Of a stretch of DNA of 64,000 nt, positions 731-61,000 are shown one piece after another (positions within the stretch are counted from its first letter, which is position 1; each line of letters opens with the position of its first letter). The stretch comes from Rhynchopus sp. YZ270_cl-10 (Eukaryota): contig OZ037833.1 in assembly GCA_964035575.1 (NCBI GenBank), forward strand, positions 434,001 to 498,000. The letters are read 5' to 3'. Made by a program: the position numbers and the translations under genes. The notes under the pieces were generated by a model that had not been told where the DNA came from, made no database searches, and saw only the letters and a list, made by a program, of their open reading frames with translations.

Positions 731-1636
731 CAGTGTTCCACGTACATTTTTCAACGTACATTTTTCAATATTTTCAAAATATTGAAAATATTGATCAATA
801 TTTTCAATATATTGATCAATATTTTACTATTTTCCCACTGAAAAATACCATACAAAATAAATCAATATTTATCAATATTTTTAATATTTTTGTTTTTTTT
901 ACACGTACTTTTTGAAAATATTAAAATATTGAACTTTTTTCAAAAAACTATTATTAAATATATTTGCGAAGCCGTGTCCCAAGGAATTTTTTTTTTGATT
1001 GGGTTTCACCCAGGGTCACGTGGATCATGTGGACCACGTGGGATTTTTAAAGAATAGCCTTTTCCCAGCTATTTACTTTGTACTGTACGATTTGCGGATT
1101 TCCAACTATTCACCCTTTTCATCCACAAATAGCCGGTGTGCCCCTCCTTAATAGGTATTGCTATGTTACGCGAAAGATGTGGGGGAAAAACATCAGAAAA
1201 GAAATTGTGCATCGTGGTGCAACACACATCTAAATAAAAATGTGTTCATTTCTTTTTTTTCTTTTGATAAATTGCTTGGAGCAGTGTAGTTTTGCCTCTG
1301 GTTGTGTTTCCACAGTTTTTGTGCAAAATCTCCACTTTTTCCCTTTCTTTTGTTACTGTTGATATTGGGTTTTCTTTTGGGTTGATGCGGCTTTGTCATT
1401 TTTATTTTTTATTTTGCTTTTTTCGCAACACAAAAAACAAAAATCAAAAAGGAACACAAAAAGGGAAATCTTGAAAGGTGGACCAAGCCTCGTGCTTAGT
1501 AATCACTTCACAAAACGATTTAAAAAAAAAACCCCCCAGCAAAATCCCTTGAAAAATCTTTTCGAAGGCCCAGTTTGTTTGTTGTTGAACCACATCACAA
1601 AAAAAAAAGGGGGGAAAAAGCGTTTTGAAATCTTCA

Positions 1637-2749
1637 CACGGTTCGGAAAAGTACTTTTTTAAAAAGTGATATTTTTTGGTCAAAAAAAGTACTTTTTCAC
1701 TTTTCGAAAAAAAAAGTACTTTTTTTTTTTTCGTCAAAATTGTACAGGAAAAAAAAAAGTACTTTTTATTTTTCCGTCAAAAATTGTACGGAGAGAAAAA
1801 ATAAAAAGTACTTTTTTTTTTTCTGTACAAAAAATTTAGAACACTGGAAAAAAAAAAGTACTTTTTATTTTTTCTCTCCGTACAATTTTTGACGGGAAAA
1901 AAAAAAGTACTTTTTTTTTTTTTCCTCCGTACAATTTTTGCACCACGGCGTACGAAAGCGCTTGAAGCGTTTTTTTTTTTTTCGGGGGGAAAAAAAAGCA
2001 CTTTTCGCTTGATGAAAAAAAAAAAAGCGCTTTTTTTTTTTTGTGTGGGGTTTTTGGTAAGGCGTACCTGTTCTCATGATTTTTTGATATTTTGGTTGTT
2101 TTTTTGTGTTGGGGTCAGCCCCGCCGCCAGGATTTTTGAGGTTTGAAAAACTTCTGTTGGATGGTCCCAAAAAAACCCCCCTGCAATCGTAGCCTCCGGC
2201 AGAGAGAAGAATGTTCCCCAAGCACAGTCAGAGTTCCTCCGAATCAACGACATTCGCTCCTTCTCACTTCCCACCGGGCTGTTGTGCAGGAGGCATGTAC
2301 ATTGTACTCTTCCGTGGCCGGTGCAGGTGGCCGTCCACAAGCTGCAGTGGATGTCAGCCTTCTTATCAGCAAACAGCGGTCATGGCACCCAAAGGTTCCT
2401 GGCGAAGCCACGGTACGCAACATTTCTAAAAAATGTTGCCATAAAATGGCACTGCGTTTGTAATTTTTGTCAGAAAAATGCCCACAGCGGGAAATCGGCG
2501 ACTCGATAAATTTGGTTTGGGTCACTTGTAGTGTGGACTTAAACCCCCTTAACAAACCCCTTCAGGAAAAAAAAGCGCTTTTTCCTAAAAATTCAAGCGC
2601 TTTTTTTTTGAAAATTTCTCAAAAAACTCCTCGAAGCGCTTTCGTACGCCGTGTTGCACAGAAAAAAAAAAAGTACTTTTTTTTCTTCAAGTACTTTTTT
2701 TTTTTGGAAAAGTACTTTACTTTTGGGCAAAGTACTTTTCCGATCCGTG
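1637..2749. mobile_element. Non-autonomous TIR element (MITE), 6-bp TSD
   Basis: TIR CACGG(T/A)TCGGAAAAGTACTTT at both ends with 1 mismatch. TSD TCTTCA at 1631-1636 and 2750-2755. Many subterminal AAAAGTACTTTT motifs. Confidence 0.85.
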
Positions 2750-5700
2750 TCTTCAAATAAAATAGTAAATGCAGATGAACTTCAAGCCGATTAAAATTTC
2801 CTTTTTTTTTACGCCCACACAGTTTTGCTTTGGTCAAAAATTCGAATAATAAAATAAAAAATGCACACACGGAGAGAGGGAGGACGAGAGACCCCTTTGC
2901 TAAAAAGGGACTGACTACAGTGTTCATTTTCAAGTTGATGAACTTTTTTTTTTTTTTTGTTTTTTTTTTTTTTTTTTGTATAATTTGCAGGCTCTCCGCT
3001 AGGATTTCCGATTTTGAAAATATTCTGTTGATGGTCCACGTTGGTGGGGTACATGCTTGCGCCGCAGGCGCACGGTACGCAACTTTTTTTTTTACCAACG
3101 CCCGATTTTGACTTTTTTGGGACGTTTGAGCACTCACCTCTCCATATCTTCTTCTCCTGAGCTTTTTTGACAGGTAGAACGGGTCTGAACCACTTAGCAG
3201 AACTTTTTTTTTTTTTCTTTTTTTCCCCATTTTCAAAAAGTTCTGTTGACAATCAACAGAACTTTAGTACCTAGCGGAGTGCCTGATATTTTGTTATGTC
3301 GACGATAGTTAAAATACCCATCGGTGGGCAATTTTTCTCCCCATTTTCTTGTGAAAAGCATCCCCGAGGATGCTCCACAAATCCCCACTTTTTTTTCAAA
3401 AAAAACAAAAAACAAAGAACGAACGAACGGGGTCTGTGGGGGAAGGGGTAAAATTGTGAAAAAGATAAAATATGTTGTGCAAAAGGGGACGGGGCACGGC
3501 AGACAGGCACCAACAAGAAGGGGAAGGGAGGGGAGACAATAGAGATATTGGAACAATAAAATATGAAAGTATACCCCTCAACAAGGCAAAAAAAAAGGGG
3601 GGGTTATTTCCCCCTATATCACTCCTCTTCTTTTGGTGATAATTTGTTTTTGGTTTTAGCGGCTGGCATTCAGACAGCACCTTTTTTTTTTTGAAAATTT
3701 GGCAGTATTAGTGGACACCCGAGGATGAACTCCACGATATATTTTTTTGTTTTTGCATACAATTTCCTGAATATGTGCTTGCACACTAAATTGAGTGTTG
3801 CGATTGCGGGGGGTATGCATTTATTTTTAGCGTTTTGCTTTTGTTCGAGTTGAATCGAACACTGGGAGAAAAGGGGCAGTAGGGGGGGAAGGGGGGGGCA
3901 TTTTTCACCCGCCCTCCCTCCTCTAAATCGACTGTGTCATGCTGAGGACGGTTAACATGATAAACACATTGAGAAAAACACTGGTCACGTCATGACATAG
4001 CCATCCAATCATGGGAGGGAGAAGGAGAAAAAAAAATATTTTCTTTTTTTTTGCACACGACACATCAATTCGATGATGGGGTTCGGTACAAAAAAATGCA
4101 ATGTTGTTGTTGTTGTTGTTGTTGTTGTTTTTTTTTTTTGAAAAATATTGTTGGAATAGTGTAGTTGCCACATATACAAGCTCCACTGTCCCTAAAGTCA
4201 CTTTTTGAGTGCTTTTTTTTTCATTTTTACCTTGGGGGAATTGTAATGTAAGGGAGATAAAGAAAACTTAAAAAAGATGAACAGGGTGCTTCTGGCCTTG
4301 CTGTGCACATGAACACAATGCATCATTTTAGTAAGTAGCAAAAATCCCGCCTCTCAAAAAAAAATGTTTCATATACATTCTTTTCTGACGAAAAGAAGGT
4401 ACTCAAAAAAAAATTATGTTGGTATAGTCAAGAAGCAGTCGGAAGAATACAACTTCGAGCCATCTTTTTTTTTTGCAACAGATTTTGAAAAAAATTTCCA
4501 TTTTTTCACCCTCTCGAATTTGTATCTCAACCTCTACAGCAAAATAAGAAAAGAAAATAAGGGAGTTAAAGAATTTTGAACCAACCCTAGTCACAAATCT
4601 TCAACGCGGAAATGGTGGGAAGGGTGCAGGAAAATGAAAAAGAAAAAAAAATAATAATACTCGAACCATAACGGGGTTGGTGAAGTAGGGGGAGGGGAGT
4701 GAGGGAGTTTTTCCTAATTCAGCCCTTTTGAGGGGAAAGAGCTGAAGGTAAATAACATAAATATGTTCCATTGGAGAGAAAAAAAAATAGGTGCACATTC
4801 TTCAAAAAAGAGTGCAGTTGATAGTGGAATGTTTCAGCAGATGCAAAGGGCCATCCAAAAAAATACAATAAAACGATGAATGTACCATGTGTACAACACA
4901 CCCACAAAAAAAAAAAAACAAATCACAGAAAGGGAAATCATTTGTGAGTCAAGGAACTGAGGGTAGGGAGACTGACAATACGTTTTTTTTGAAGACTTGG
5001 TATTTTGTGTCGACACCCCCAAGGATGAGCTCACACTATTTAGGGGTGTGGAGAACAGAGGTTTTTTTACGGGGGGGTGGGGGGGGGTTTCACCCCCCCC
5101 CCACGATTTTTTTCCCGGCTTTTGGGGGGGTGAAAATAAAATTTTTTTTTGGAAAATAAAAAATAAAATCTTGATGGTGTTCTCTTACTCTCCCCCCGAT
5201 ACCTTTCTCGCGCCAAGAACCATCCAAGGGAGTTAGAGGGTGGGCGTGTTTTCCTAGAATTTGACGGACGGAGCTCGTAGAACCCAACGAGGAATGAGAA
5301 AAAAGGATAGGGCGAAATCATAAAAGTAGCGTACCGTGCGCCTGCGGCGCAAGCTTACTGTAAATTGTATGACATGGTACTGGGTACTTAACACAAAAAA
5401 GTGGACGGCATCTAAAAATTTCCGCCTGCGGCGCGGCAGCCCTTGACCCAGTTTCCCCCTTTTCTTGTTCAGTCGGCAGGATCACTTGGCCCTTACACTG
5501 ATGTTGACCAAAAGCCAAGAACTTGTCCATTTCGTCAAATTGACCCCACCACAGCGCGGACGGATTCCAAAAATCCCCCACGAACCAGCTTCTCCAGGGG
5601 CTTCGCGCGCGAAGCGCGCGAAAAATTTTGCAACCCGAAAAACACCTCACCCCCCCTAAGGTCAAAAAAACCGGTCCCAAAAAAAACCTCTGGTGGAGAA

Positions 5701-60290: not shown

Positions 60291-60770
60291 TGTGTGGGGA
60301 AGGGGAGAGAGGGGGCTTTGTAAAAAGTATGTTATGTTCGGTGTCCCCCCTCTGTGGTGGGTGTTGAAAGCAGTTGTGGTGTTTAGCCTTCAGGTCTCTT
60401 TGAAAACGCTCCTTTTGTGGAAACAGAAGAAAAATAGGGCAATAGCGGGTGGAGCAACAATGTTGGGGCTGGACGCACGACACCCCATCCACTTTTCATT
60501 GAAGCGTTGGGAAGGGAGGCCGACAGTGTGAAACTCCTCGGGAACATCGAGGGCTCCTATGATCCCGTGTGTCAGGCTTCCTCTCGGAAGGGAAATGGAG
60601 AGCTGGATACCTATCTGAAGCAAGCTGCATCTTCAGGGTTTATCGCGAGGTGGTGAAGCAGATAGGACAGGGGAAACAGGTAAGGTCCCTGAGACGGAGC
60701 CTACCCCTTTCCTGGACTGGAATGCCATAAAGTGGTATTTGATGTTCACAACGCCCACAAGGAAATGAAA

Positions 60771-61000
60771 GAAAAGTTTATAAGATGAACCTAAGCCTCT
60801 CGTGCTTAGTCACCTTATCATATTCGTTATCGCACAGCTTCAGCTGCGCTGGCTTCTACAAGTTTGTTGTCAGGGATGATGTCATTTCCCCAGCCGGAGT
60901 TCGTAATTTTGGCACGTACGATGACGTGTTCGAGCATGTGCATAGTGTAGCGCGGGTACGTAAAAACTGGGCGACGGTCGTAGCCTATAAGTCCGGGTGG
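60771..61000 (-). mobile_element. 5'-truncated non-LTR retrotransposon copy (230 bp) with TSD ATGAAA
   Basis: Absent from paralogous segments at ~54916 and ~63667. Encodes PPGLIGYDRRPVF...SGWGNDIIP, homologous to the ORF2 end (PALIGFSRRPVL...SGWGNDCIP). Ends in the family A hairpin. Confidence 0.92.

What the first reader, a model, noticed from the sequence alone, without database searches (positions are those of the whole stretch)
1475..61000. About 25 tiny retrotransposon 3'-hairpin stubs of three families, all co-oriented with host genes
Seen, on the minus strand. Family A AAGGTGACTAAGCACGAGAGGCTTAGGTTCATCTTATAAACTT: ~1475, 7620, 8395, 13944-14700 (x7), 31010, 33160, 39745, 60773. Family B GTGGAGTTCATCCTCGGGTGTCYACACTAATACCAAGTTT: ~3360, 3700, 4995, 8185, 33290, 36632, 37200. 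Family C GTGCCTGCGTCCCAGAGGCGTTTGCACTATCAACTT: ~6690, 14346, 14747, 37582, 39986. Each folds as a bulged stem-loop followed by AA(C/G)TT and a U-rich tract. C is the end of the full element and A is the end of the 230-bp truncated copy. B is assigned only by analogy. Inference: either extreme 5' truncation leaving just the hairpin, or retention as UTR/processing signals, comparable to trypanosomatid SIDERs but far smaller.
Basis: partly seen in the sequence, partly recalled or inferred. Interest (0 to 1): 0.85.

Follow-up and report, generated by a model that had tools for sequence, protein, structure and literature searches.

The report
Hairpin-only retrotransposon stubs in a diplonemid
In a genome that likely belongs to a diplonemid protist, two jumping-gene families have left likely hundreds of 45-base copies that hold only the hairpin from the element's end and, in this window, all face the same way as the genes; they are likely selfish leftovers rather than gene-control signals.

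Summary
Mostly real. Hairpin C ends an intact APE-RT LINE (14744-19750). Hairpin A ends a 230-bp copy 98% identical in protein to a second LINE family, with a 6-bp target duplication proven by empty sites. In public contigs of this organism, about 700 contigs (one run; 549 in a second study) leave family A within 3 bases of the stem's 5' base, into unrelated T-rich flanks; summed depth steps up 5-11-fold there. So the stubs are a discrete ~45-nt insertion class, not the tail of random truncation. B has sharp ends, a poly(A) tail and one clear target duplication, but no parent and no Rfam match; it folds weakly. Old copies show no stem covariation, lie at scattered distances from genes and pile up head to tail, which argues against SIDER-like domestication. 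Co-orientation is not explained by T-run/A-run content and stays open. No RNA data, no whole genome. Verdict: new variant of stringent-type LINE retroposition; possibly a promoterless micro-SINE.

The parts
14744..19750 (-). Full-length LINE, family C (ORF1, ORF2, 3' hairpin, T-rich tail)
   Evidence: 37-member protein cluster at 94% identity
19238..19750 (-). ORF1, 170 aa, no known family; same frame as ORF2, separated by one TGA
14795..19237 (-). ORF2 frame, 1480 aa stop to stop: APE endonuclease and reverse transcriptase, no RNase H hit
   Evidence: Pfam PF03372 E 1.3e-14, PF00078 E 8.3e-22; best solved relative human L1 ORF2p E 2.5e-18
14744..14782 (-). Hairpin C at the end of the full element (a second hairpin lies just upstream, 14784-14812)
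   Evidence: z -2.14 alone, -4.41 with the upstream hairpin
60771..61000 (-). 230-bp 5'-truncated copy of LINE family A, ending in hairpin A (60772-60818)
   Evidence: 98% identity to the last 56 aa of P0003; fold z -3.58
60765..60770 (-). 3' copy of the 6-bp target-site duplication (5' copy 61001-61006)
   Evidence: empty sites in paralogous DNA near 63670 and 54920; joint 60764-61001 with 6 ambiguous letters in both runs
1465..1502 (-). A stub, old
   Evidence: 8.1 bits vs shuffle maximum 6.8
6860..6901 (-). Likely A stub, old; not in the finding
   Evidence: score 29.5, within shuffle range; below threshold
7616..7665 (-). A stub
   Evidence: 31.0 bits
13930..13975 (-). A stub (cluster)
   Evidence: 32.3 bits
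14012..14041 (-). A stub, 5' half (cluster)
   Evidence: 11.8 bits
14217..14262 (-). A stub (cluster)
   Evidence: 39.3 bits
14512..14554 (-). A stub (cluster)
   Evidence: 26.3 bits
14606..14652 (-). A stub (cluster)
   Evidence: 30.8 bits
31003..31050 (-). A stub, old
   Evidence: 8.5 bits
39731..39790 (-). A stub reaching 13 nt beyond the stem, to the parent's stop codon
   Evidence: 24.3 bits
8391..8428 (-). A2 stub (sister subfamily of A)
   Evidence: 87% to 33164-33192; fold z -2.20
33157..33194 (-). A2 stub, high-copy in public contigs
3693..3735 (-). B element with A tail
   Evidence: 41.5 bits
4991..5037 (-). B element with A tail
   Evidence: 34.3 bits
8180..8225 (-). B element with A tail
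   Evidence: 36.0 bits
33287..33328 (-). B element; flanks share a 10-nt word behind an A run (likely decayed duplication)
   Evidence: 41.5 bits; flanks; not caught by the exact test
36629..36671 (-). B element with a 10-bp target-site duplication
   Evidence: 41.6 bits; 10 nt, matched by 0 of 10 cross-pairings; sharp ends in about 90-130 contigs per run
37196..37243 (-). B element, old
   Evidence: 9.6 bits, at the shuffle edge
8910..8975 (-). Longer B-like element (D) with A tail inside the intron 8879-9042 of a nucleotidyltransferase/MLLE gene
   Evidence: 87% to 1266-1336; intron from homologue alignment
1266..1336 (-). Longer B-like element (D)
4133..4186 (-). B-like element (D), shorter
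   Evidence: 16.2 bits, E 0.31 with the B model
6691..6728 (-). C stub, old
   Evidence: 31.3 bits
37581..37617 (-). C stub
   Evidence: 38.4 bits; high-copy in public contigs

Best explanation
The stubs are about 45-base insertions, likely written into the genome by the resident LINE reverse transcriptases, that hold only the 3' hairpin the enzyme is predicted to bind plus its tail, and they likely decay afterwards without a host role. Shown: A and C are the 3' ends of two sister LINE families with intact ORF2 copies; most A copies seen begin at the stem's 5' base; some copies carry target duplications; A and C sit in T-rich, B in A-rich DNA; stubs land next to stubs. Inferred: ORF2p binds the stem-loop (as in stringent LINEs), nicks a T-rich site, and primes on the U-rich tail (A tail for B). 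The copy ends at the stem base most likely because the template is cut back to the protein-covered hairpin, or because the enzyme falls off once the stem is copied and refolds. Each insertion adds a new T tract, which is the next target, giving clusters. B is inferred to be the same kind of product from a third, unseen or extinct family. Why copies face the gene direction is not explained; transcription-linked targeting or loss of antisense copies are guesses.
For: Parents; tree puts A and C in one clade with P0002 (95 SH-aLRT, quick tree). Fixed 5' end: 150/404/143 contigs (X1) and 124/310/115 (X3) leave the alignment at 60815/60816/60817 into T-rich flanks with agreement 0.42-0.48; summed depth steps 11.1x and 4.7x at the stem base. 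In the window 8 of 10 A stubs start within 60810-60824 of the parent, both C stubs at 14780. Target duplications. Head-to-tail stubs: 16 and 12 contigs in the two best rows for X1; A or C followed by B. No difference from the parent inside the hairpin reached the 5% list. No covariation: A 69.3% paired vs 69.3% shuffled. Precedent for stem-loop recognition: PMC4176376 (passages); for T-tail/T-rich targets: PMC1635306 (passages).
Against: Only 2 of 17 copies tested give a target duplication that is secure. Table 7 shows 12 of 390 rows, so ends of longer copies were not counted; depth sums are no copy numbers. B has no parent, a different tail and a weak fold. Subfamilies with no known parent (A2; a B variant with a 3-nt insert in about 17% of depth) fit stub-to-stub spread as well. 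Co-orientation (19 of 19; T runs 85 vs A runs 84 on the gene strand) is not accounted for and is what a host role would also give.
Confidence: 0.62

Rival explanations
1. The stubs are self-sustaining promoterless micro-SINEs: every gene-oriented stub is transcribed by host read-through, bound in trans by ORF2p and copied again, so stubs beget stubs. This extends the best explanation rather than excluding it.
For: Stubs far outnumber longer copies while each parent family has only 37 and 44 protein records. A2 and B are high-copy with their own variants and no parent found. T tracts on both sides would let both ends pair with any T-rich target (inference). Polycistronic transcription is reported for D. 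papillatum (PMC10161547, abstract and passages).
Against: No shared diagnostic change inside hairpin A reached 5%, as expected if each stub comes straight from the parent; in-window copies differ in private ways. No RNA run.
Confidence: 0.28
2. The stubs were kept by the host as 3'-UTR or RNA-processing signals (pyrimidine tract plus AG, poly(A) or stability elements), like SIDERs.
For: 19 of 19 co-oriented, not explained by homopolymer content; parent-type A, B and C copies begin with AG and A/C stubs sit in pyrimidine tracts (sequence); five stubs lie 250-580 nt behind a stop codon. SIDER precedent: PMC2323293, PMC2689281 (passages).
Against: No covariation in A (282 of 500 shuffles as high), weak in B (31-49 of 500); distances to genes run from about 100 to over 7000 nt; a B-like copy is intronic; only one copy in 13.3 kb of non-coding DNA at 40-64 kb against about 20 in 17.8 kb before it, so many genes here do without.
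Confidence: 0.1
3. Ordinary random 5' truncation plus decay, the hairpin being merely the last recognisable part; or headed SINEs that share only the LINE tail.
For: Longer copies exist and thin out gradually upstream; one stub reaches 13 nt further.
Against: Sharp pile of ends within 3 nt in copies at least 85% alike, flanks without common sequence, a 10-bp duplication hugging a 43-nt B, no shared upstream DNA in the window.
Confidence: 0.07
4. B is not a LINE end but a retroposed small host RNA or an unrelated poly(A)-primed element.
For: No RT ORF beside B, A tail instead of T tail, weak fold.
Against: No Rfam match at E<=1; same layout and last bases as A and C (stem, spacer, AA(C/G)TTTTC); clusters with A and C.
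Confidence: 0.25

Closest known systems
Stringent-type LINEs (zebrafish ZfL2-1/ZfL2-2, eel UnaL2) and their 3' stem-loops
   Same: Family-specific bulged stem-loop at the 3' end of an APE-RT element, followed by a short tail (PMC4176376, passages).
   Different: There the stem-loop is the end of long or variably truncated copies or of headed SINEs; here the stem-loop alone is the commonest copy, with a fixed 5' end. Binding is untested here.
Leishmania SIDER1/2 and trypanosome RIME/NARTc
   Same: Short non-coding retroposon remnants in a trans-splicing euglenozoan, mostly sense to gene clusters (about 4:1, PMC2689281 passages), T-rich DNA upstream (PMC2323293 passages).
   Different: SIDERs are ~550 bp, keep the 79-bp 5' signature and an A-rich end, are extinct and have a shown effect on mRNA; these are ~45 bp, keep only the 3' end, and have intact parents and no sign of constraint.
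Entamoeba EhLINE1/EhSINE1
   Same: T-rich 3' tail proposed to pair with the A-rich strand of T-rich targets (PMC1635306, passages).
   Different: Different host and, recalled, a restriction-like rather than APE endonuclease and a SINE of several hundred bases.
Tailless retropseudogenes of therian mammals
   Same: Very short retroposed copies with ends at defined, structure-linked positions (PMC5322556, abstract).
   Different: Those are host RNAs cut short at the 3' side by a relaxed L1; these are the LINE's own 3' signal cut short at the 5' side.
Diplonema papillatum LINE-like ORFs
   Same: Nearest named proteins, 32-40% identity over the RT-to-C-terminus region.
   Different: Non-coding parts of those elements are stated to be not yet analysed (PMC10161547, passages); no 3' hairpin data were available.

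Membership tests
APE-type non-LTR retrotransposon (parents A, C) | APE endonuclease and RT in one ORF | tested here: met
   P0003 carries the same two Pfam families
APE-type non-LTR retrotransposon (parents A, C) | 5'-truncated copies with target-site duplication | tested here: met
   230-bp copy with empty sites; duplication of the full C element not distinguishable from chance
APE-type non-LTR retrotransposon (parents A, C) | Placement in a named clade (L1, RTE, Ingi, Ambal and so on) | not tested
   no reference sequences of these clades in hand; tree holds only search hits
Stringent-type LINE | Family-specific 3' stem-loop | tested here: met
   predicted folds z -3.58 and -2.14; A and C differ in sequence
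Stringent-type LINE | ORF2p binds and needs its own stem-loop | not testable with these tools
   needs binding or retrotransposition assay
SIDER | 79-bp 5' signature and ~550 bp length | tested here: not met
   stubs are 37-60 nt and match only the parent's 3' end; the signature itself was not aligned
SIDER | Sense orientation within gene clusters | tested here: met
   19 of 19 in this window; genome-wide untested
SIDER | Lies in 3' UTRs and alters mRNA fate | not testable with these tools
   no RNA holder listed
Classical SINE | Pol III head from tRNA, 5S or 7SL RNA | tested here: not met
   no such Rfam match; no shared upstream sequence
Classical SINE | 3' tail shared with a partner LINE | tested here: met
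   A and C; not shown for B
Classical SINE | Amplifies from its own source copies | tested here: inconclusive
   variants in A2 and B but none listed in hairpin A
snRNA/snoRNA (for B) | Match to a known small-RNA family | tested here: not met
   0 of 13 Rfam matches at E<=1 overlap an A, B or C copy

The most novel reading that the evidence does not exclude
The stubs are the smallest possible retroposons: promoterless 45-base micro-SINEs made of nothing but the LINE recognition hairpin, which use constitutive polycistronic transcription as their promoter, are trimmed to the protein-bound stem, and re-amplify from one another, outnumbering and perhaps outliving their parent LINEs (B and A2 as orphans).
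Probability: 0.28. Interest if true: 0.78.

Novelty: new variant of a known kind. Interest (0 to 1): 0.5.

Why it matters
5' truncation of LINEs is usually treated as random. A natural population of hundreds of inserts that stop at the base of the recognition stem maps the minimal cis-signal in vivo and points to a defined stop or trimming step that can be tested. If stubs re-amplify from host read-through RNA, they show how non-autonomous elements can exist without any promoter in organisms with polycistronic transcription, and offer a starting state for SIDER-like domestication. Practically, 45-bp repeats at about one per kb of A/T-run-rich non-coding DNA are likely missed by repeat annotation and would pass for conserved regulatory motifs.

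Tried and rejected
No whole genome is held, so strand bias and length histogram could not be done genome-wide. No RNA holder listed; X6 holds a small share and was laid once without use as evidence. Exact B and A patterns found nothing in metagenome, viral and prokaryote collections. 16 related loci from metagenomes are distant (22-54% identity); none showed an A, B or C hairpin above 7.8 bits. Search for B's parent: none of 111 ORF2 relatives matched DNA upstream of a B copy; ten other clusters showed no contig length in common with the A/C clusters among the members listed (at most 15 listed per cluster); the search kept only 7989 candidates of 814-2590 aa. ORF1: no Pfam or Atlas hit. Exact target-duplication test failed to beat cross-pairings for 15 of 17 copies, and the A 230-bp one rests on the empty sites. 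Covariance models found no new clear copies beyond their seeds. Idea that region 1-9040 is one long intron: rejected, the next exon starts at 8878. Idea that T-run strand bias explains orientation: rejected (85 vs 84 runs; pyrimidine tracts 82 vs 54 give at best p about 6e-5 for 19 of 19). First self-BLAST returned nothing through a settings fault and was redone. Earlier findings: none held. T. cruzi SIRE as an analogue is recalled only; one search gave no text on it.
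Full report
Setting. All recognisable genes in the window lie on the minus strand. The nearest named relatives of the retroelement ORF2 and of the nucleotidyltransferase gene are from Diplonema papillatum and a record labelled Rhum, at 32-49% identity, so the host is likely a diplonemid. 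No whole genome is held. Eight public runs were listed, five holding most of a 9.5-kb test stretch, none on record as RNA; I laid four of them and two. The best holder may be the source of the assembly; X3 comes from another study.

Observation. Both strands were scanned with the best copy of each family, then with profile HMMs against 20 locally shuffled windows. The other 7 are a sister subfamily (8395, 33160), weak cluster copies, half copies (14346, 39986) or within chance (3360). The parent hairpins fold better than shuffles (A z -3.58, C z -2.14); B does not clearly (z -0.47 to -1.65). No Rfam family overlaps a copy (0 of 13 matches).

Parents. 14744-19750 is an intact LINE: a 170-aa ORF1, one TGA, then in the same frame an ORF2 with APE endonuclease and RT, ending in hairpin C and a T-rich tract. 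Its protein cluster has 37 members. The 230-bp piece at 60771-61000 encodes the last 56 residues of P0003 at 98% identity, a 44-member cluster that shares contig lengths with the first, and ends in hairpin A. Paralogous DNA near 63670 and 54920 lacks the insert and shows one copy of the 6-bp word that flanks it; both runs laid hold the empty form. A quick tree of 43 RT rows puts A and C in one clade with P0002 (the careful search did not finish). No parent was found for B.

The key result. Contigs laid on the 230-bp copy leave the alignment at 60815, 60816 and 60817, the 5' base of the stem, in 150, 404 and 143 contigs in X1 and 124, 310 and 115 in X3; the loose parts are long, T-rich on the element strand and unlike each other (agreement 0.42-0.48). 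3' ends pile at 60768 (374 and 310). Summed depth rises 11.1-fold (X1) and 4.7-fold (X3) at the stem base and slopes gently further upstream. Only 12 of 390 loose-end rows were shown, and the tool warns that depth is no copy number; dividing by the largest possible overlap factor of 31 gives a rough floor of about 1300 (X1) or 250-560 (X3) copies (my inference). B behaves alike: 97, 89 and 86 contigs end at 36671 with unrelated A-rich flanks and 119, 110 and 132 at the 3' side with a poly(A) run. In the window 8 of 10 A stubs start within 60810-60824 of the parent and both C stubs at 14780. B at 36629 has a 10-bp duplication matched by 0 of 10 cross-pairings; 15 of 17 copies tested gave nothing secure. 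Head-to-tail A dimers and A-B or C-B neighbours recur in contigs, matching the cluster at 13930-14780.

Function. Across 10 A copies 69.3% of stem cells pair, the same as in shuffles; 7 B copies give 85.7% against 82.6%, with 49 of 500 shuffles as high. The samples are small. Distances to genes are scattered, a B-like copy lies in a 164-nt GT-AG intron, and the right 24 kb, poor in A/T runs, has one copy among its eight or so genes. This fits neutral decay in homopolymer-rich DNA. Against that stands the orientation: T runs and A runs of 7 or more are equal on the gene strand (85 and 84), so target composition does not explain it. Transcription-linked targeting, or loss of antisense copies that would form double-stranded RNA, are untested guesses.

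Mechanism. Shown: parents, fixed 5' end, T-rich or A-rich context, some duplications, clustering. From established work: stringent LINE ORF2 proteins bind their own 3' stem-loop (PMC4176376, passages), and a T-rich tail is proposed to pair with the A-rich strand at T-rich targets in Entamoeba (PMC1635306, passages). Inferred: the same holds here, and the copy ends at the stem base because the template is trimmed to the protein-covered hairpin or the enzyme drops off there. Whether stubs themselves serve as templates is open: no shared change inside hairpin A reached the 5% list, but A2 and B are abundant, have variants and lack known parents.

Comparison and novelty. It works like the 3' signal of stringent LINEs. 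It is not a SIDER (those are ~550 bp with a 79-bp 5' signature; PMC2323293 and PMC2689281, passages) nor a headed SINE (PMC3747384, passages). Defined, structure-linked ends in very short retrocopies are known from tailless retropseudogenes (PMC5322556, abstract). Ten literature searches (listings only, unless named above) showed no report of a hairpin-only class or of diplonemid LINE ends; the library lacks most subscription papers and Repbase. The D. papillatum paper says non-coding parts of its elements await analysis (PMC10161547, passages); a search of its 7 supplement files held as text found my terms only in one spreadsheet, so its repeat section may bear on this unseen. Verdict: new variant of a known kind, interest 0.5.

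Noticed in passing
window 19238-19240 and 19150-19130 (-): ORF1 and ORF2 of family C are in one frame split by a single TGA, followed by a degenerate 2A-like peptide (motif name recalled); none of 15 listed cluster members is a fused ORF1-ORF2 length. Family A ORF2 and 8 other relatives carry a clearer 2A-like motif. Read-through plus ribosomal skipping is a possible way to express ORF2.
   Followed up: partly
window 19750-19800 (-): The full element has almost no 5' UTR: a T run directly precedes the ORF1 ATG, suggesting reliance on host transcription and trans-splicing.
   Followed up: no
window 31165-31243, 36995-37078, 37497-37570, 38860-38990: Four more short high-copy repeats seen as depth peaks; the first has short terminal inverted repeats, the third looks like another hairpin with a T tail.
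   Followed up: partly
window 1774-1895, 1939-2658, 3055-5354, 6238-6659, 52009-53008: Pairs of inverted repeats that may bound non-autonomous DNA transposons; related dispersed repeats occur in both orientations, unlike the stubs.
   Followed up: no
window 19989-30461 (-): The DOMON-domain ORF and the ferric-reductase-like ORF appear to be one gene joined by short GT-AG introns near 21340-22150.
   Followed up: partly
window 8772-11826 (-): Poly(A)-polymerase-like nucleotidyltransferase with a C-terminal MLLE domain split by an intron; orthologues in other diplonemids.
   Followed up: partly
window 51662-52002 (-): Fragment of large-subunit rRNA (45 bits); scattered 28S pieces are reported in D. 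papillatum (PMC10161547, passages).
   Followed up: no
window 38987-64000: Young segmental duplications (98-99% alike) of B-box, CRAL-TRIO and BspA-type LRR genes, with microsatellite arrays at 45400-45670 and 55200-55610.
   Followed up: no
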